From assembly GCA_030835405.1 (NCBI GenBank), contig JAURPG010000097.1:8479-72478 (forward strand): a DNA stretch of 64,000 nucleotides, given 5' to 3'. Position numbers and translations under genes: made by a program. Under the pieces are notes generated by a model. The model saw only the letters and a list, made by a program, of their open reading frames with translations, was not told the DNA's origin and made no database searches. Below, one piece after another: positions 19,605 through 27,600 of this stretch. Within the stretch, counting starts at the first letter, position 1; each line of letters opens with the position of its first letter. The stretch comes from Gammaproteobacteria bacterium. GTDB lineage: Bacteria > Pseudomonadota > Gammaproteobacteria > Eutrophobiales > Eutrophobiaceae.

Positions 19605-21347
19605 GTGTTTAAAAGAGGATATGGACAAGTGAAAAAATTACTGACACTGGCAGGATTGCTATTGTTATCGATTCAGGTGAATGCCATTGTCATGGTTGTT
19701 GAAACGCCATTGGGTGACTTTCAAATTGATTTACTTGAAGATGAAGCCCCTAACACTGTTAATAATTTTATCAGCTATATCAATGATGGCAGTTTTGAAA
19801 ATTCTTTTGTCCATCGAAGCTCAACCGGGTTTGTTATTCAGGCGGGGTCATATACCTTGGTTGACGAGACTCTGGAAGAGATAGAGAAAAAGGACCCTGT
19901 TGTGAATGAGTTCGGTCGTTCCAATATCAGGGGCACGGTTTCAATGGCCAAGGTAGGTGGTGATCCCAATAGTGCCACCAGTTCCTGGTTTATCAATATG
20001 GCAGATAATTCAGAAAATCTGGATAATCAGAATGGTGGTTTTACGGTATTCGGTGTCGTCCTCGGTGATGGGATGGACATTGTCGATGAAATCCATGCCT
20101 TATCTCTATTTGATGCCTCAGAGACTTCAGGAGCCGATTTTACTGAGCTCCCCTTGATAGATTATTCAGGGACCGGTGTGATCACCGCAGAGCACCTGGT
20201 CTTTACCCAGATAAGTCTTCCCGATGATTTGAATGAAATTACCGATCTTGCCATTACCAAATCGGTAAATATCACTGCACCTGCCCCGAATAATTCCGTC
20301 GAGTTTACTGTGACGGTATCAAATGATGGGACTGATGACGCAAATAGTATTGAGATTACTGATCCATTACCGGAAGGTATGGAGGTTCCCACGGGTATGG
20401 CGCCATTCACCAGTCTTGGTAGCTATGATACTGATACCGGTGTCTGGTCTATTGACACCTTATCGGCAGGTTCAAATGCCACCTTAAACCTGCCGGCGAT
20501 TCCCCAGCAATTTGCCGACCCAGAATGTTTCGTAAACACAGCAGCGCTTTCTGACTTTGCCGGAGTGGATACAAATTTCGATAATAATAGTGCGAACTCT
20601 ACAGTATATGTAGGTGGTATCTCTACATGTTCAAACCTGAGACTTAGTGTTTCCACAGATACATTCTTTGAGGCACGATGTTCAACAAGCTTCTCAGATG
20701 CTTTTGATTTTTTTGTGGAGGTAACAAATGATGGTCCGGATACGGCAGAAAACGTGGTGGTTACCATATCGGGTAGCCTGGATAGTACAGCCCAGGACGA
20801 TATTGTCATTGATTTTGGGGAAATATTAGCCGATGCATCTAAGAGCCAGTTAAGAAGTTGGACGCTGGCGTGTAACAGGCCAGATAGTGTCGCAACTTAT
20901 TCAGTTGTTACGACAAGTGATAGTAATGTATCAACAGGTAGTGTTCTCTCTGTTACGGGTGAAGATGATGTGCCGGACAATCCACCGACAGATGATACAA
21001 GTGATAACCCTACACCTGATAACAATAACAATGGTGGCGGTGGTGGGTTATGTTTTATTGCCACGGCAGCATATGGTTCTTATATGCACCCTCATGTGAA
21101 AGAATTAAGAGACTTTCGTGACGATGTATTACTGCATACAGAAATAGGCAGGCGTTTTGTTGCCTTGTATTACCAGTATTCGCCACCTGTTGCAGATATA
21201 ATCGCTGATAATGTAGTGCTGAAAAGTATTACCCGGATATTGTTGACACCTGTGGTCTATGCTGTCATTTACCCGCTTGCTGCGTCATTTATTATACTGT
21301 TGTTAATGGGCGCACTGGTATTTAGGCATACACGCAAAGCCAGGTAA
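19605..21347 (+). CDS. secreted mosaic protein: cyclophilin-type peptidyl-prolyl isomerase domain + two DUF11 repeat domains + acidic Pro/Asn linker + poly-Gly + conserved C-terminal 'CFIATAAYGS' module ending in a hydrophobic helix and basic tail
   Basis: GTG start with a GGGAGA ribosome-binding site and a signal peptide '...LLLLSIQVNA'. Residues ~30-170 align block by block with PpiB ('APNTVNNFISY', 'VHRSSTGFVIQAG', 'NIRGTVSMAK', 'SATSSWFINMADN', 'VFGVVLGDGMDIVDEI'). DUF11-like repeats follow ('TVTVSNDGTDDANSIEITDPLPEGMEV', 'FVEVTNDGPDTAENVVVT'). The C-terminus reads 'NNNNGGGGGLCFIATAAYGSYMHPHVKELRDFRD...TPVVYAVIYPLAASFIILLLMGALVFRHTRKAR'. Confidence 0.8.
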   Translation: MFKRGYGQVKKLLTLAGLLLLSIQVNAIVMVVETPLGDFQIDLLEDEAPNTVNNFISYINDGSFENSFVHRSSTGFVIQAGSYTLVDETLEEIEKKDPVVNEFGRSNIRGTVSMAKVGGDPNSATSSWFINMADNSENLDNQNGGFTVFGVVLGDGMDIVDEIHALSLFDASETSGADFTELPLIDYSGTGVITAEHLVFTQISLPDDLNEITDLAITKSVNITAPAPNNSVEFTVTVSNDGTDDANSIEITDPLPEGMEVPTGMAPFTSLGSYDTDTGVWSIDTLSAGSNATLNLPAIPQQFADPECFVNTAALSDFAGVDTNFDNNSANSTVYVGGISTCSNLRLSVSTDTFFEARCSTSFSDAFDFFVEVTNDGPDTAENVVVTISGSLDSTAQDDIVIDFGEILADASKSQLRSWTLACNRPDSVATYSVVTTSDSNVSTGSVLSVTGEDDVPDNPPTDDTSDNPTPDNNNNGGGGGLCFIATAAYGSYMHPHVKELRDFRDDVLLHTEIGRRFVALYYQYSPPVADIIADNVVLKSITRILLTPVVYAVIYPLAASFIILLLMGALVFRHTRKAR

Positions 21348-23296: not shown

Positions 23297-23746
23297 ATGG
23301 TTATGCGTAAAACAATCAGTGTATTGATTTTCTTGCTTATATTGTCTATGCCGGGATATGCAGATCCAGTAGATGATGCCCTGGCAGTATTGAATAAATG
23401 GTCATTGGCATTTGCTGCGGCCGACGTGGATGGCATAGTAAAATTATATTCACCTGATGCCCTGTTTCTTGGTACTGGTAGTCCGTCAGTTGTTACCCAG
23501 ACTGAGGGTATCCAAGAATATTTCGAGAGGGCTTTGTTAAATGATCGTCCCAGGACGGCGAGGCTAAAAAGTTATTCTGCCTTGGCGTTATCTGATTCAG
23601 TGGTGGTATTTTCAGGCCTGGACACCATTACCGGCACCCGTAACGGCAAACAGATGATATCTAATGGACGGGTTACGATTGTGGTGGCAAAGCGAGAAGG
23701 AGAATGGAAGATCGTCCAGTTTCACCGCTCCAGGTTACCGGGATAG
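23297..23746 (+). CDS. exported NTF2-fold protein (SgcJ/EcaC / DUF4440-like)
   Basis: 149 aa with a signal peptide. 'AVLNKWSLAFAAADVDGIVKLYSPDALFLGT...' matches the SnoaL/DUF4440 pattern. Confidence 0.6.
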   Translation: MVMRKTISVLIFLLILSMPGYADPVDDALAVLNKWSLAFAAADVDGIVKLYSPDALFLGTGSPSVVTQTEGIQEYFERALLNDRPRTARLKSYSALALSDSVVVFSGLDTITGTRNGKQMISNGRVTIVVAKREGEWKIVQFHRSRLPG

Positions 23747-24418
23747 CTCTTCAAGGTGATGTGAGAAATCGGTTAACGTACTGATTGTTATCGTAGGCGT
23801 AGCGTCCCAGGGGTCAAAGACCATTTTATCTGATCGTTTTACCCACGCGGTTTTCATCCCCACGTTCAGGCCTCCAAGAACATCAAAGGGGTTGCTGGAT
23901 ATTAGCCAGGTATTGTTGGCATCTGCACCAGTTTGTTTCAGAAAGTATCGATAAACCTCGGGGTTTGGCTTGAATGTTTTTACATCATCCACACTGATAA
24001 TTGCTTTAAAAAAATTGCGTATACCTGCCGCTCTTAATACCTGGTCAACAGATTCTGGATCACCATTCGAAAATGCAAAACAATGATGCCCTTGCGATTG
24101 CAAGCGAGACAATGCCTCTAGAGCATCTTGAAAGGCCGGAAGCGAATTATATTTTGATAGAAGGTCGTTTTTTTGCTGGGTGGTTAAATCCTGTCCAACG
24201 GATTGACATGTAAAGTCCAGTGCCTGGCGAGTACATTCAGAAAATTTTACATAGTCCTTCATTAAGCCTCGGCGAAAAGAATACTCCAGTTGCTTATTGC
24301 GCCAGTTATCGGAAAATTGCTGTGCTTTTTCTCCAACCATATCTGTTAATAGTTCCACTACACCACTTGTATCCACTAGCGTGCCATAAACATCAAATGC
24401 AAAGGTATTGACCGTCAT
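23735..24418 (-). CDS. haloacid dehalogenase type II (HAD superfamily hydrolase)
   Basis: 227 aa with HAD motif I 'AFDVYGTLVD' at the N-terminus and the later motifs 'SNG' and 'ISVDDVKTFKPNPEVY'. Confidence 0.8.
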   Translation of the reverse strand: MTVNTFAFDVYGTLVDTSGVVELLTDMVGEKAQQFSDNWRNKQLEYSFRRGLMKDYVKFSECTRQALDFTCQSVGQDLTTQQKNDLLSKYNSLPAFQDALEALSRLQSQGHHCFAFSNGDPESVDQVLRAAGIRNFFKAIISVDDVKTFKPNPEVYRYFLKQTGADANNTWLISSNPFDVLGGLNVGMKTAWVKRSDKMVFDPWDATPTITISTLTDFSHHLEELSR

Positions 24419-24520: not shown

Positions 24521-25009
24521 TTAGGATAAAGTATATTCTCGATCCTCAGTGATGAGCCATATATTGAACATATTTATTTCGGCAATATATCCTTCGATAT
24601 AATTATCAATATCAATAATTCTGATATAGTTTCCACGCCTGAAAGTTGGATGTAAAAGGATAATAAAAAAAGCTGTGACGTTACTAAGAATTGACCAGTT
24701 TGCAAATAATGCGACACCAGTTAACGTCAAAATTCCGGTCGAAAGTAATAACAGGTTCCTGAAATCAAAACCCCAGATTAGTAATAATATCGGGATCGCA
24801 AATAATAACAGGATGCCGTTAGCGTAATGGCTGGCAGTATTCAGTAATTCATCCTTGAATTTACTCGTTTCGATGGATTCCTTTATCTTGGGCCTGGTTG
24901 ATTTGCTTATGAGATAAATACATATAAGTACAAGTAATGTAAGAAACACGTTTAAGGAATAAGTATTGTAAAAGATAGCCAGGCTATCCAGTATTTCTCC
25001 AAAGCTCAC
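24521..25009 (-). pseudogene. C-terminally truncated MscS-like channel (mini-MscS remnant)
   Basis: 162 aa with TM helices, then 'LLLSTGILTLTGVALFANWSILSNVTAFFIILLHPTFRRGNYIRI', which matches the MscS TM3 pore-helix region. The ORF stops about 35 aa into the beta-domain. A downstream frame (around 24440-24500, minus strand) reads 'KQYFSVGKITDFSSQNED', which is weakly like the continuation 'IPNGKIIAGNIINFSREP'. Confidence 0.45.
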
Positions 25010-25078: not shown

Positions 25079-25771
25079 TCATTTCTGATCTGTTGCAAAA
25101 CAGTAAAATCTTCCTGCACCGCCTGTTGATCTGAAATCATCCAGAGAACAGCCCCGGGTTGCATGGGATGAATTCCAGGACGTATTCCAGCCACTTAGTC
25201 TGTCATGATGGCCAATCATGGCACTACCGTCGGAACCATCATAGGTCCAGTTATTACAGGTCAGATTATTACCTGCAGAAGTGGTGCCGGGAGGAAAGGC
25301 ACGGCCATGAGAATCAGAGCCTGTAATTATGTCGTGTTCATTGCCAGTGCCCTCGGGTCGTACACGTCCATTTACCAGTTCGCCTCTTTCCGTCAGTGCA
25401 GTCTCCCGGTAGATTAGATTACTGTCACGTTGTATATCACCATGTAGATCGACAAGGCTGGCAGCGATCATCACGCCTTCGGCGTTATACCAGGGGCCAT
25501 TGCCTATCCGGTCACGTGCATTAACAGCCGGTGTGGATTGTGTACCATGGGTGCTGAGATAGGCCCGCCAGGTATGTTGGCCTGCGCCTGCAGCCGAGGC
25601 GAGTTTCTGGCAAATGGCATCGGCACCTTCAAGCCCGCCTAAATTACCATTTTGCGTAGTACTGGTTACAAAAAATGTCATTTCATGCGCACGATTCGAT
25701 TGCCCTGCTACCATATTTGAAATCAGCAACATAATTATTGTCATCACGAATATAATTGGATTGTTTTTCAT
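25079..25771 (-). CDS. secreted DUF1554/endostatin-like (C-type-lectin-fold) protein
   Basis: 230 aa with a signal peptide. 'GGLEGADAICQKLASAAGAGQHTWRAYLST' parallels the endostatin '[28 protein letters not shown]'. Conserved Cys spacing near the C-terminus ('LTCNNWTY...RGCSLDD...RFYCFA') parallels the endostatin disulfides. Confidence 0.55.
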   Translation of the reverse strand: MKNNPIIFVMTIIMLLISNMVAGQSNRAHEMTFFVTSTTQNGNLGGLEGADAICQKLASAAGAGQHTWRAYLSTHGTQSTPAVNARDRIGNGPWYNAEGVMIAASLVDLHGDIQRDSNLIYRETALTERGELVNGRVRPEGTGNEHDIITGSDSHGRAFPPGTTSAGNNLTCNNWTYDGSDGSAMIGHHDRLSGWNTSWNSSHATRGCSLDDFRSTGGAGRFYCFATDQK

Positions 25772-25995
25772 TTACTCATCCCCCGTTCTTTAACTATATA
25801 TTTCAAATCTAACTAACAAATTAGTGTATAGAAATTTTCTATTTTAGTTTGCTGCTACAATCTGGAAATTACCATCAAATAAGGGATAATTCAGATCGAA
25901 AGGGCCATTCTTACCCCAAAGACTATATATGAAGTATCTTACACCCTTAGGATATAAGATATAAATCTATATCAACAAACTTAAATTAGATATCG

Positions 25996-26415
25996 ATGTT
26001 GATAATTAACCGACAAATATCCATTGACGAATCTGAACTGAAGATTACAGCTATCCGGGCTCAGGGACCCGGTGGGCAAAATATCAATAAGGTGGCATGT
26101 GCAGTACATCTCAGGTTTGATATTCCAGGTTCTTCATTGCCTGGGCCGATAAAGAATCGTTTACTGGCATACAAGGACTATCGAATATCTAAAGACGGTG
26201 CCATTGTCATCAAGGCGCAGAGATATCGAAATCGGGAACGAAATATTGATGATGCTCGTAATCGACTCAGGGACCTCATACGGTCTGCTATTGAAGTACC
26301 CAAAAAACGTATTGGCACCATGCCCAGTATCGCTGCAAGACAAAGGCGCCTGGATGACAAGACAAAAAGAAGCAAGATAAAACGTTACAGGACAAAAGTG
26401 GACCCTCATGAATAA
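25996..26415 (+). CDS. arfB: alternative ribosome-rescue factor ArfB (peptidyl-tRNA hydrolase, YaeJ)
   Basis: 139 aa with the GGQ motif 'RAQGPGGQNINKV' and a basic C-terminal tail. It is near-colinear with E. coli YaeJ ('ITAIRAQGAGGQHVNKT...LRFDI'). Confidence 0.9.
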   Translation: MLIINRQISIDESELKITAIRAQGPGGQNINKVACAVHLRFDIPGSSLPGPIKNRLLAYKDYRISKDGAIVIKAQRYRNRERNIDDARNRLRDLIRSAIEVPKKRIGTMPSIAARQRRLDDKTKRSKIKRYRTKVDPHE

Positions 26416-27004
26416 ACCTTATGCACAAGCCTGTGATCGAAACCGTGATCCTATTTTATCGGTTATAAAGTCACTATTGGCTGATGCCGGTTCAGTTCTT
26501 GAGGTGGGAAGCGGTACGGGACAACATGCCGTTTACTTTGCCGGACATCTACCTCACCTGCAATGGCAGTGTTCCGACCTGCTTGATAACCTGCCTGGAA
26601 TCAAAATCTGGATAGATGAATCTGACTATGCAAACCTGCCATTGCCAGTTGAATTGGATGTTTCATCTATCAATTGGGCGGCACTGGAATATGATGCAGT
26701 TTTTTCCGCTAATTCTGTCCATATTATGAGCTGGGAGCATGTGAAGGCCTTTATTTCCGGGGCAGGCCTTGCACTGAATCAAAATGGTTTATTGATACTC
26801 TACGGGCCATTTAATTACCAGGATAATTATACCAGCGATAGCAACAGGGTATTTGATGGCTGGTTGAAAGAGCGTGACCCGGTAAGTGGGATCAGAAACT
26901 TTGAAGACCTGGACAGGTTGGCGAACGAAGCCGGGTTTATATTACAGGGTGATATCGAAATGCCCTCCAACAATAGAATCTTATATTGGCAGAAAACTGT
27001 CTAA
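26408..27004 (+). CDS. DUF938 family protein (class I SAM-dependent methyltransferase-like)
   Basis: 198 aa. 'CDRNRDPIL...VLEVGSGTGQHAVYFAGHLPHLQWQCSDL' is the characteristic DUF938 N-terminus. It overlaps arfB by 8 nt. Confidence 0.7.
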   Translation: MNKPYAQACDRNRDPILSVIKSLLADAGSVLEVGSGTGQHAVYFAGHLPHLQWQCSDLLDNLPGIKIWIDESDYANLPLPVELDVSSINWAALEYDAVFSANSVHIMSWEHVKAFISGAGLALNQNGLLILYGPFNYQDNYTSDSNRVFDGWLKERDPVSGIRNFEDLDRLANEAGFILQGDIEMPSNNRILYWQKTV

Positions 27005-27600
27005 TGAAGATTGTAGAGAAAAATATCTGTTATCGTAATGCCGCAATTTCTGATTGCTCTCATATTGTCCGTCTCTATAGTATCGCATCAGATGGCATAG
27101 CGAATTACGTGTGGTCCACGATGGCAGCACCTGGACAGGACCTGGAAGAGGTTGGGGTACGCCGTTACCAGAGGGAGGATACGATTTACAGTTACTTAAA
27201 CTGTATCATGGCGGACGTCGATAATCAGGTGGCCGGGATGATGTTATCTTACCCCATGCAGGTTGATAAGGACGAAAATTATAGCGATTATGATCCTGTT
27301 TTACTTCCATACGCCAGACTGGAAGAGGACAACAGCTATTACATTTCGGGGATGGCTATATATCCTGAATTTCGGGGCAAGGGTATTGGTACACGCTTTA
27401 TGGCCCTGGCCGAGCAGCGCGCAACCGAGCAAGGCTATGACAAGCTTAGCCTGATAGTGGTTGAGGAGAATACTACCGCCCTGAACCTGTATAAAAAAAC
27501 AGGATATTATGAGGCTATGCGTCAGGCCATTGTGCCCCATCCATTAATACATTGCATTGGAGATGCTATGTTAATGGTAAAACAATTGTCTACTTCATGA
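27004..27600 (+). CDS. GNAT family N-acetyltransferase
   Basis: The acetyl-CoA binding motif 'FRGKGIGTRFMALAEQRA' is present. The likely start is the ATG at 27004, which overlaps the upstream stop (TAATG). Confidence 0.8.
   Translation: MKIVEKNICYRNAAISDCSHIVRLYSIASDGIANYVWSTMAAPGQDLEEVGVRRYQREDTIYSYLNCIMADVDNQVAGMMLSYPMQVDKDENYSDYDPVLLPYARLEEDNSYYISGMAIYPEFRGKGIGTRFMALAEQRATEQGYDKLSLIVVEENTTALNLYKKTGYYEAMRQAIVPHPLIHCIGDAMLMVKQLSTS

What the first reader, a model, noticed from the sequence alone, without database searches (positions are those of the whole stretch)
25079..25771. Secreted endostatin/DUF1554-like lectin-fold protein
The mature domain opens with 'GADAICQKLASAAGAGQHTWRAYLST', a close parallel to the N-terminal disulfide region of collagen XVIII endostatin. 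It ends with a Cys pattern matching the second endostatin disulfide. The bacterial counterpart of this fold (DUF1554) is best known from Leptospira and a scattering of environmental bacteria, and its function is unknown. Here it is divergently transcribed from arfB, behind an AT-rich 224-bp promoter region.
Basis: partly seen in the sequence, partly recalled or inferred. Interest (0 to 1): 0.55.

Follow-up and report, generated by a model that had tools for sequence, protein, structure and literature searches.

The report
Secreted bacterial endostatin-fold DUF1554 protein

Summary
The ORF at 25079-25771 (-) is real: 230 aa with a Sec signal peptide, four invariant Cys, and divergent from a confirmed arfB across a 224-bp spacer of 29.5% GC.

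Evidence for the endostatin fold:
- On its own the protein only grazes Pfam DUF1554 (27.7 bits, cutoff 27.5) and misses Pfam Endostatin (18 bits, cutoff 29.4).
- A diverse family profile hits endostatin structures by sequence (E 8.7e-8; hhalign 95%).
- A high-confidence AlphaFold model (pLDDT 91.6) matches only the five endostatin PDB entries (TM 0.67-0.73).

Endostatin's Zn ligands and heparin-binding arginines are absent, and the protein is acidic (pI 6.0 against 9.3).

The family has its own conserved site. H146, D147, H188 and H203 are kept in over 90% of diverse members and are lost together. D190 (85%) lies next to them.

The family is huge: at least 578 species genomes and 6,961 clusters. 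It has no conserved operon. In relatives the domain is joined by Pro/Ala linkers to GH5 glycanases, a subtilase, an esterase-like hydrolase and T9SS tails.

Best reading: a stand-alone, exported, lectin- or CBM-like binding module, possibly metal-assisted. Function is inferred, not shown. It is a new member of a known kind, of modest interest.

The parts
25079..25771 (-). Complete CDS (230 aa plus stop) of the exported endostatin-fold / DUF1554-family protein
   Evidence: ORF list. The exact protein is present in public collections. GC3 of 0.42 matches the neighbours, so it looks like a resident gene.
25703..25771 (-). Predicted Sec signal peptide, residues 1-23 (MKNNPIIFVMTIIMLLISNMVAG | Q). 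No lipobox Cys.
   Evidence: Read from the sequence. Hydropathy peaks at 3.25 over residues 6-17. All 32 close homologues have an equivalent N-terminus ending ..A-Q. None of the 32 has a lipobox. The cleavage site is inferred; no predictor was available.
25550..25627 (-). Residues 49-74, GADAICQKLASAAGAGQHTWRAYLST: helix alpha-1 carrying C54, followed by the WRAYLS strand. This is the segment shared with endostatin and the DUF1554 model.
   Evidence: Pfam hits. Alignments to endostatin with C54 opposite C33. Helix 46-60 and strand 68-70 in the model.
25100..25612 (-). Span holding the four conserved cysteines: C54 (25610-25612), C172 (25256-25258), C208 (25148-25150), C224 (25100-25102). Inferred nested disulfides C54-C224 and C172-C208.
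   Evidence: 98-100% conserved in 109 diverse domains. C54 and C172 align to endostatin C33 and C135. Endostatin pairing is taken from PMC5426730. The pairing here is inferred, not measured.
25163..25336 (-). Family-specific His/Asp signature: H146-D147 (NEHD), H188-H189-D190 (GHHDR), H203 (WNSSH). Candidate metal or ligand site.
   Evidence: H146 0.91, D147 0.91, H188 0.91, D190 0.85 and H203 0.94 conserved across 109 diverse domains. H146, D147, H188 and H203 are lost together (Fisher p 5e-9 to 1.6e-2). In endostatin H146 and D147 correspond to K and S.
25772..25995 (.). 224-bp AT-rich divergent intergenic spacer between this gene and arfB. A Shine-Dalgarno-like GGGGGA lies 7 nt upstream of the ATG.
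   Evidence: Coordinates and GC of 0.295. Upstream mRNA reads ...AACGGGGGATGAGTAA-ATG. Promoter-like hits are not above the shuffle expectation.
24521..25009 (-). Context only: a 162-aa membrane ORF 69 nt downstream on the same strand. Possibly co-transcribed, and lineage-specific.
   Evidence: No terminator-like site on the minus strand in the gap. Conserved immediately downstream only in L004, L005 and L006. Weak sub-threshold MscS beta-domain hit.

Best explanation
The gene encodes a Sec-exported protein of about 22 kDa made of a single endostatin-fold domain. It belongs to a highly conserved, stand-alone subfamily of Pfam DUF1554.

Proposed steps:
1. After signal-peptide cleavage near G23/Q24 (inferred), the domain folds in the oxidising periplasm or outside the cell.
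2. It is held by two nested disulfides, C54-C224 and C172-C208 (inferred by analogy with endostatin 33-173 and 135-165).
3. It acts as a non-catalytic binding module of the lectin or CBM type for a glycan or other extracellular polymer.
4. The ligand site is most likely formed by the family-specific, jointly conserved residues H146, D147, H188 and H203, with the adjacent D190. It may act through a bound metal ion, as Ca2+ does in C-type lectins.

It does not work like endostatin in detail: there is no N-terminal Zn site, no basic heparin patch and no collagen context. It is not a Leptospira Len-type lipoprotein adhesin.

What is shown: the ORF, the export signal features, family membership, homology and fold, absence of endostatin's functional residues, conservation and co-loss of the His/Asp residues, and domain fusions in relatives. 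What is inferred: the cleavage site, disulfide pairing, metal binding, glycan binding, and final location.
For: Fold and homology:
- Foldseek against the PDB returns only endostatin entries for two independent models. The second model has pLDDT 91.6 and pTM 0.86.
- Profile against PDB sequences gives E 8.7e-8. hhalign gives 95% probability and E 4e-8.
- DUF1554 hits in all 32 homologues, and full-length DUF1554 alignment in relatives.

Export:
- Hydrophobic N-terminus in the query and all close homologues.
- Four invariant Cys.
- Relatives carry T9SS sorting tails or lipoboxes.

Binding-module role:
- The same domain, with its signature intact, sits N-terminal to Pro/Ala-rich linkers and GH5 endoglucanase-like domains in four independent 50%-identity cluster representatives (P0176, P0214, P0217, P0232).
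- Two of these were verified as single genes on independent contigs.
- It is also fused to a subtilase and to an esterase-like alpha/beta hydrolase, and occurs in tandem or triple copies in giant surface-type proteins.
- The only characterised bacterial relatives, the Len proteins, are binding proteins (PMC2063517).

Joint site: conservation and co-loss of H146, D147, H188 and H203.
Against: - No binding or metal data exist for any member of this subfamily.
- Fusion to GH5 would also fit a second catalytic domain.
- About 70% identity between phyla and five conserved His are more typical of an enzyme or a metal centre than of an adhesin or lectin.
- Spatial proximity of the His/Asp residues could not be measured.
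- No canonical C-type lectin or CBM was detected by Pfam or Foldseek.
- There is no conserved gene neighbourhood to point to a substrate.
Confidence: 0.6

Rival explanations
1. It is a metal-dependent enzyme. The His/Asp cluster on the endostatin scaffold would form a catalytic Zn, Fe, Cu or Mn centre acting on an extracellular substrate. The GH5 fusions would then be bifunctional enzymes.
For: Unusually strong conservation: 84 invariant columns among 32 sequences from several phyla, and about 70% identity between Gammaproteobacteria and Acidobacteriota. H110, E128, H146, D147, H188, D190 and H203 are 85-94% conserved. Coupled loss of H146, D147, H188 and H203. An acidic protein with 9 His.
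Against: No similarity to any enzyme family in Pfam, NCBIfam or the PDB. No enzyme is known on the endostatin fold, though that statement is from my own knowledge. Copies in multi-copy giant proteins have lost the signature yet are retained, which suits a scaffold or binding module. The domain sits where CBMs sit, at a terminus and separated by a Pro/Ala linker.
Confidence: 0.2
2. It is a periplasmic or extracellular metal-binding protein for metal buffering, scavenging or delivery. It would have no glycan ligand.
For: A conserved His-rich signature in an exported protein. Endostatin itself binds Zn, though at a different site (PMC5426730).
Against: No metal-homeostasis genes recur in the neighbourhoods of 79 loci. 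Fusions are to glycanases, a protease and secretion tails, not to metal transport domains. A single site in a 22-kDa, two-disulfide domain is a costly design for buffering.
Confidence: 0.1
3. It is a host-interaction adhesin like the Leptospira Len proteins or endostatin, binding laminin, fibronectin, heparan sulfate or complement regulators.
For: It shares the domain family with the Len proteins, which bind laminin, fibronectin and factor H (PMC2063517). It shares the fold with endostatin.
Against: Carriers are free-living aquatic and soil bacteria, mostly MAGs. NCBIfam Len models score 16 bits against cutoffs of 300-400. There is no lipobox. pI is 6.0, and the heparin-binding arginines and Zn ligands of endostatin are absent. 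Len binding is ionic and heparin-competed, which an acidic protein does not suggest.
Confidence: 0.05
4. It is not a functional gene but a chance ORF or pseudogene.
For: None found.
Against: More than 8,000 homologues with strong purifying conservation. Intact start, SD-like sequence and stop. High-confidence fold.
Confidence: 0.01

Closest known systems
Endostatin (C-terminal NC1 domain of collagens XVIII and XV; PDB 1KOE, 1BNL, 1DY0-2; Pfam PF06482)
   Same: Same fold: the only PDB matches, with TM 0.67-0.73 normalised to the target. Detectable sequence homology (E 8.7e-8; hhalign 95%). Shared GADxxC helix, WRAYLS/FRAFLS strand, 'GSDxxGR' and 'C-x-x-W' motifs. Four Cys in the same order.
   Different: A bacterial, stand-alone, signal-peptide-bearing protein, not a collagen fragment. 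Pfam Endostatin is below threshold (18 against 29.4 bits). The Zn ligands H1, H3, H11 and D76 are absent (H11 aligns to F33, D76 to G99). The heparin-binding arginines are absent and the protein is acidic (pI 6.0 against 9.3). About 25 residues longer, with insertions. Has its own His/Asp signature, which endostatin lacks (H146 and D147 correspond to K and S).
Pfam DUF1554 (PF07588), domain of unknown function
   Same: The query and all 32 close homologues hit the model. Relatives of the same family align across the whole model (4-135 of 136). Precomputed Pfam tags on many homologues are PF07588.
   Different: The query passes by 0.2 bits and only over the first 40 columns. This roughly 228-aa subfamily is much more conserved than the model suggests. 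It extends about 35 residues beyond the model (WNSSH...C...C).
Leptospira interrogans LenA-F endostatin-like outer-membrane proteins (NCBIfam NF047482, NF047483; PMC2063517)
   Same: Bacterial exported proteins with an endostatin-like (DUF1554) domain, and the only experimentally studied bacterial relatives. They are binding proteins. There is a weak hit over the same N-terminal motif (E 0.004).
   Different: Len proteins are reported as outer-membrane/outer-surface proteins (evaluated there for lipoprotein signals) of a pathogen that bind laminin, fibronectin and factor H. Here there is no lipobox, the hosts are free-living, and scores are far below the Len cutoffs (16 against 300-400 bits). 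Whether Len proteins carry the His/Asp signature was not tested.
C-type lectin-like domains (CTLD superfamily)
   Same: From my own knowledge of Hohenester et al. 1998 (listed as reference 24 in PMC2063517), endostatin is distantly related to the C-type lectin CRD and the Link module. That includes the alpha-1 to last-strand disulfide and a second disulfide across the beta-3/beta-4 region. The order 'NEHD ... C ... WNSSH ... C ... C' parallels 'EPN ... C ... WND ... C ... C'. Several NCBI records call homologues 'lectin'.
Carbohydrate-binding modules of secreted glycoside hydrolases
   Same: In relatives the domain occupies the CBM position: signal peptide, domain, Pro/Ala-rich linker, GH5 endoglucanase-like catalytic domain.
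   Different: It is not in any CBM family that Pfam recognises here. In the window it is a stand-alone protein. Binding has not been demonstrated.

Membership tests
Pfam DUF1554 (PF07588) | Whole-protein score at or above the gathering threshold (27.5 bits) | tested here: met
   27.7 bits, E 2.6e-6. Marginal. All 32 aligned homologues also hit, with best E 3.3e-7.
Pfam DUF1554 (PF07588) | Alignment over most of the 136-column model | tested here: inconclusive
   The query aligns only to columns 2-40. The homologous domain of relatives P0132, P0135, P0125, P0201 and P0238 aligns over columns 4-135, 6-126 or 4-130. The domain is therefore the same but divergent in this subfamily.
Endostatin (Pfam PF06482; collagen XV/XVIII NC1) | Pfam score at or above the gathering threshold (29.4 bits) | tested here: not met
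   18.0 bits, E 0.0024, columns 8-57 of 170.
Endostatin (Pfam PF06482; collagen XV/XVIII NC1) | Endostatin three-dimensional fold | tested here: met
   Foldseek against the PDB: the top five hits are all endostatin, prob 1.00, E 2.9e-8 to 7.8e-5, TM to target 0.62-0.73, and nothing else below E of 1. Model pLDDT is 91.6.
Endostatin (Pfam PF06482; collagen XV/XVIII NC1) | Two nested disulfides (Cys33-Cys173 and Cys135-Cys165) | tested here: inconclusive
   Four Cys are conserved in the same order. C54 aligns to C33 and C172 to C135. The register of C208 and C224 and the actual pairing were not measurable because no coordinates were accessible.
Endostatin (Pfam PF06482; collagen XV/XVIII NC1) | N-terminal Zn site (His1, His3, His11, Asp76) | tested here: not met
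   H11 aligns to the conserved F33 and D76 to G99 (at least 90% Gly). The H1/H3 segment has no counterpart. Ligand identities are from PMC5426730.
Endostatin (Pfam PF06482; collagen XV/XVIII NC1) | Basic heparin-binding arginine patch | tested here: not met
   R24, R27 and R139 align to L44, E48 and T176. Mature pI is 5.96 and the family median 5.8, against 9.3 for endostatin.
Endostatin (Pfam PF06482; collagen XV/XVIII NC1) | C-terminal domain of a collagen chain, released by proteolysis | tested here: not met
   A stand-alone 230-aa bacterial ORF with its own signal peptide.
Leptospira Len family (NCBIfam NF047482 LenA/B, NF047483 LenF) | Equivalog HMM score above the cutoff (300 or 400 bits) | tested here: not met
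   16.5 and 15.9 bits.
Leptospira Len family (NCBIfam NF047482 LenA/B, NF047483 LenF) | Lipoprotein signal (lipobox Cys) and outer-membrane anchoring | tested here: not met
   No Cys in the N-terminal 53 residues. None of 32 close homologues has a lipobox, although 9 of 57 more distant relatives do.
Leptospira Len family (NCBIfam NF047482 LenA/B, NF047483 LenF) | Binding of laminin, fibronectin or factor H | not testable with these tools
   Needs protein biochemistry. The property is described in PMC2063517.
Canonical C-type lectin domain (Pfam Lectin_C) | Profile or structural match to CTLDs, with Ca2+/sugar motifs (EPN/QPD and WND) | tested here: not met
Carbohydrate-binding module (functional class) | Non-catalytic domain appended by a linker to a carbohydrate-active enzyme | tested here: met
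   This holds for relatives, not for the window protein. P0176, P0214, P0217 and P0232 have the layout domain, Pro/Ala linker, GH5. Their nearest solved structures are endoglucanases. Two are single genes on independent contigs.
Carbohydrate-binding module (functional class) | Demonstrated carbohydrate binding | not testable with these tools
   No experimental data were found in two literature searches.

The most novel reading that the evidence does not exclude
The roughly 228-aa stand-alone subfamily, present in hundreds of free-living bacterial species, could be a new class of metal-dependent glycan-binding module: effectively a new CBM or lectin family built on the endostatin scaffold. Alternatively it could be the first enzyme on that scaffold. 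In either case it would use a His/Asp site (H146, D147, H188, H203, with the adjacent D190) that has no counterpart in endostatin. It would also give a bacterial context for the origin of the metazoan endostatin domain.
Probability: 0.3. Interest if true: 0.55.

Novelty: new member of a known kind. Interest (0 to 1): 0.35.

Why it matters
For this window the result is mainly a sound annotation: an exported endostatin-fold DUF1554 protein, likely a binding module.

The wider value is that the subfamily is abundant, exceptionally conserved and wholly uncharacterised. It carries a jointly conserved His/Asp site and recurs as an appendage of GH5 glycanases. That gives a concrete hypothesis that can be tested cheaply: metal-assisted glycan binding.

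Cultured carriers and a confident structural model are both available. If confirmed, it would assign a function to DUF1554. It would also show what the ancestral activity of the endostatin fold may have been before collagens XV and XVIII recruited it.

Tried and rejected
- Single-sequence searches were weak and partly misleading. The best PDB hit by phmmer was a penicillin V acylase-like protein at E 0.055. I rejected it as chance once profiles and fold search pointed only to endostatin.
- The first AlphaFold model from a shallow alignment was mediocre (pLDDT 74.7). It was replaced by a model from a diverse alignment (pLDDT 91.6).
- Gene-neighbourhood analysis of 79 loci found no conserved partner. 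Sporadic neighbours were a divergently oriented PQQ-type glucose/sorbosone dehydrogenase (5 loci), an aldo-keto reductase, an amidohydrolase and an unknown secreted protein. I judged these too weak to use.
- A functional link to arfB was rejected. The synteny exists only in the two closest genomes.
- Recent horizontal transfer, suggested by locally higher GC, was rejected. GC3 equals that of the neighbours and the excess lies in codon positions 1 and 2.
- The promoter scan was not above chance.
- Literature searches for DUF1554, or for endostatin-like domains outside Leptospira, found nothing functional. A citable open-access statement of the endostatin-CTLD relationship was not found.
- hhalign's C-terminal tail, which puts C208 opposite C173, was not accepted. 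It has low confidence and would leave C224 unpaired.

Full report
**1. The observation**

The minus-strand ORF 25079-25771 is present exactly as described: ATG start, 230 codons, stop at 25079-25081.
- An SD-like GGGGGA lies 7 nt upstream of the ATG.
- The quoted peptide GADAICQKLASAAGAGQHTWRAYLST is residues 49-74.
- The N-terminus (MK, then a 15-residue hydrophobic core, then ..VAG|Q) has the features of a Sec signal peptide without a lipobox. The motif therefore lies about 26 residues into the mature chain, not at its very start.
- The upstream neighbour on the other strand is a true arfB (NCBIfam equivalog, 176 bits against cutoff 100).
- The spacer is 224 bp at 29.5% GC. Promoter-like matches there are no more frequent than in shuffled sequence.

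**2. What it is**

The protein alone gives only borderline database signals.
- Pfam DUF1554 scores 27.7 bits against a cutoff of 27.5, over the first 40 of 136 model columns.
- Pfam Endostatin scores 18 bits against a cutoff of 29.4.
- NCBIfam Len models reach about 16 bits against cutoffs of 300-400.
- phmmer against PDB sequences finds nothing significant.

The protein belongs to a very large family.
- The word-indexed search saturated at 8,000 hits. The best 120 were all about 228 aa and at least 67% identical.
- An exhaustive profile search found 6,961 50%-identity clusters at E of 1e-3 or better, and 482 at 1e-30 or better.
- A scan of species-representative genomes found at least 578 carriers. 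They span Gamma-, Alpha- and Betaproteobacteria, Acidobacteriota and Gemmatimonadota, and include cultured Vibrio, Phaeobacter, Bosea, Microvirga, Alsobacter and Salinarimonas strains.
- The closest genome is Candidatus Eutrophobius brisbanensis (Gammaproteobacteria), at 82% identity.

With family profiles the endostatin relationship becomes significant.
- hmmsearch against PDB sequences improves from E 0.0035 with the shallow alignment to 8.7e-8 with a diverse one. Collagen XV endostatin also appears, at E 0.004.
- hhalign of 110 diverse domains against human endostatin gives 95% probability and E 4e-8 over 163 columns.
- Pfam DUF1554 aligns over its full length to this same domain in several relatives. 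This is therefore a divergent subfamily of DUF1554, not merely a motif match.

The fold agrees. A first AlphaFold model (pLDDT 74.7) and a second from a deeper alignment (pLDDT 91.6, pTM 0.86, all five models at or above 89.6) were each searched against the PDB with Foldseek. In both searches the only hits below E of 1 were the five endostatin entries (1KOE, 1BNL, 1DY0, 1DY1, 1DY2). They had probability 1.00 and TM up to 0.73 normalised to the target.

**3. Same as and different from endostatin**

Shared features:
- the GADxxC helix, with C54 opposite endostatin C33
- the WRAYLS strand opposite FRAFLS
- 'TGSDSHGRAF' opposite 'HGSDPNGRRL'
- 'TCNNW' opposite 'YCETW', with C172 opposite C135

Endostatin's disulfides are 33-173 and 135-165 (PMC5426730). 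The four Cys here are 98-100% conserved and lie in the same order. I therefore infer C54-C224 and C172-C208. The last two cysteines could not be placed by sequence with confidence, and I had no access to model coordinates.

Differences:
- Endostatin's Zn ligands (H1, H3, H11, D76) are not conserved. H11 aligns to the near-invariant F33 and D76 to G99.
- The arginines R24, R27 and R139 of its heparin patch correspond to L44, E48 and T176.
- The mature protein is acidic, with pI 5.96 and a family median of 5.8, against 9.3 for endostatin.

**4. The family's own signature**

Across 109 diverse domains, several residues besides the Cys and four Trp remain 85-94% conserved: H110, E128, H146, D147, H188, D190 and H203.

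H146, D147, H188 and H203 are lost together in the few copies that lack them, with Fisher p from 5e-9 to 1.6e-2. The sequences are related to each other, so these p-values overstate independence. H110 varies independently of the others.

In endostatin, H146 and D147 correspond to Lys and Ser. This points to one joint functional site specific to the bacterial family, plausibly a metal site.

The order NEHD ... C172 ... WNSSH ... C208 ... C224 parallels EPN ... C ... WND ... C ... C of C-type lectins. That parallel is a recollection-based lead, not a test.

**5. Context**

- Synteny (GNAT-DUF938-arfB | this gene - 162-aa membrane ORF - HAD - SnoaL - SSF) is kept only in the two closest genomes.
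- Across 79 loci there is no conserved partner.
- GC3 equals that of the neighbours, so the gene is resident rather than recently acquired.
- The arfB adjacency therefore carries no functional information.

**6. Functional clue from fusions**

Among the best 150 cluster representatives, the domain occurs with its signature intact in these architectures:
- N-terminal to Pro/Ala-rich linkers and GH5 endoglucanase-like domains in four independent representatives. Two were checked as single genes on contigs from different samples.
- With a subtilase.
- With a dienelactone-hydrolase or esterase-like domain.
- With DUF6152.
- With FlgD-Ig and T9SS sorting tails.
- In tandem, or in triplicate in proteins of 6.5-6.9 thousand residues.

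Some more distant relatives are lipoproteins. The only studied bacterial relatives, the Leptospira Len proteins, are surface binding proteins (PMC2063517).

This is the architecture expected of an extracellular binding module of the CBM or lectin type.

**7. Verdict**

The window protein is a stand-alone, Sec-exported, disulfide-stabilised endostatin-fold DUF1554 domain.

My best mechanistic reading (confidence about 0.6) is a non-catalytic glycan or polymer binding module that uses the His/Asp site, possibly through a metal. Rivals:
- a metal-dependent enzyme (0.2)
- a metal-handling protein (0.1)
- a Len-like host adhesin (0.05)

It is a new member of a known, uncharacterised family. Public records already tag homologues as DUF1554, 'lectin' or 'hypothetical protein'. 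Interest is modest for the window itself. The subfamily is nonetheless a good target for characterisation.

Noticed in passing
window 24521-25009 (-): A 162-aa membrane ORF with a GTG start, 69 nt downstream of the endostatin-like gene on the same strand, with no terminator-like site between them. It has only a sub-threshold MscS beta-domain hit (PF00924, E 0.0028). It is conserved immediately downstream in L004, L005 (89% identity) and L006 (82%), which is better than arfB in the same genomes. It is absent next to the family gene elsewhere.
   Followed up: partly
window 25996-27600 (+): arfB, DUF938 (a methyltransferase-like protein) and a GNAT acetyltransferase overlap by 8 and 19 nt. They are syntenic in L001, L005 and L006, so they are probably one operon. 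An ArfB-DUF938-GNAT linkage might be worth a look.
   Followed up: partly
window 19605-21347 (+): A 580-aa protein combining a cyclophilin-type peptidyl-prolyl isomerase domain (residues 30-168) with DUF11/CARDB repeats (residues 213-334). This is an unusual PPIase architecture of the surface-protein type.
   Followed up: no
relatives P0122 (6506 aa) and P0123 (6876 aa): Giant proteins with Asp/Gly/Pro-rich repeats carry three copies each of the endostatin-like domain. Some copies have lost the H146/D147/H188/H203 signature while keeping all four Cys.
   Followed up: partly
L008, L012, L014, L018, L022 (upstream of the family gene): In five loci a PQQ-type glucose/sorbosone dehydrogenase (PF07995) lies directly upstream and divergently oriented. 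In four of these (L008, L012, L018, L022) a Tat-signal aldo/keto reductase is nearby. This is probably lineage synteny.
   Followed up: partly
window 23735-24418 (-) and 23297-23746 (+): A type II haloacid dehalogenase (TIGR01428, 192 bits against cutoff 125) converges on, and overlaps by 12 nt, a secreted SnoaL/DUF4440-like protein.
   Followed up: no
L011, L024, L044, L045, L046, L076 and others (neighbour cluster 2): A secreted protein family of about 310-365 aa with no Pfam match occurs in 1-3 copies per locus. It is found near the family gene in 11 of 79 loci.
   Followed up: partly
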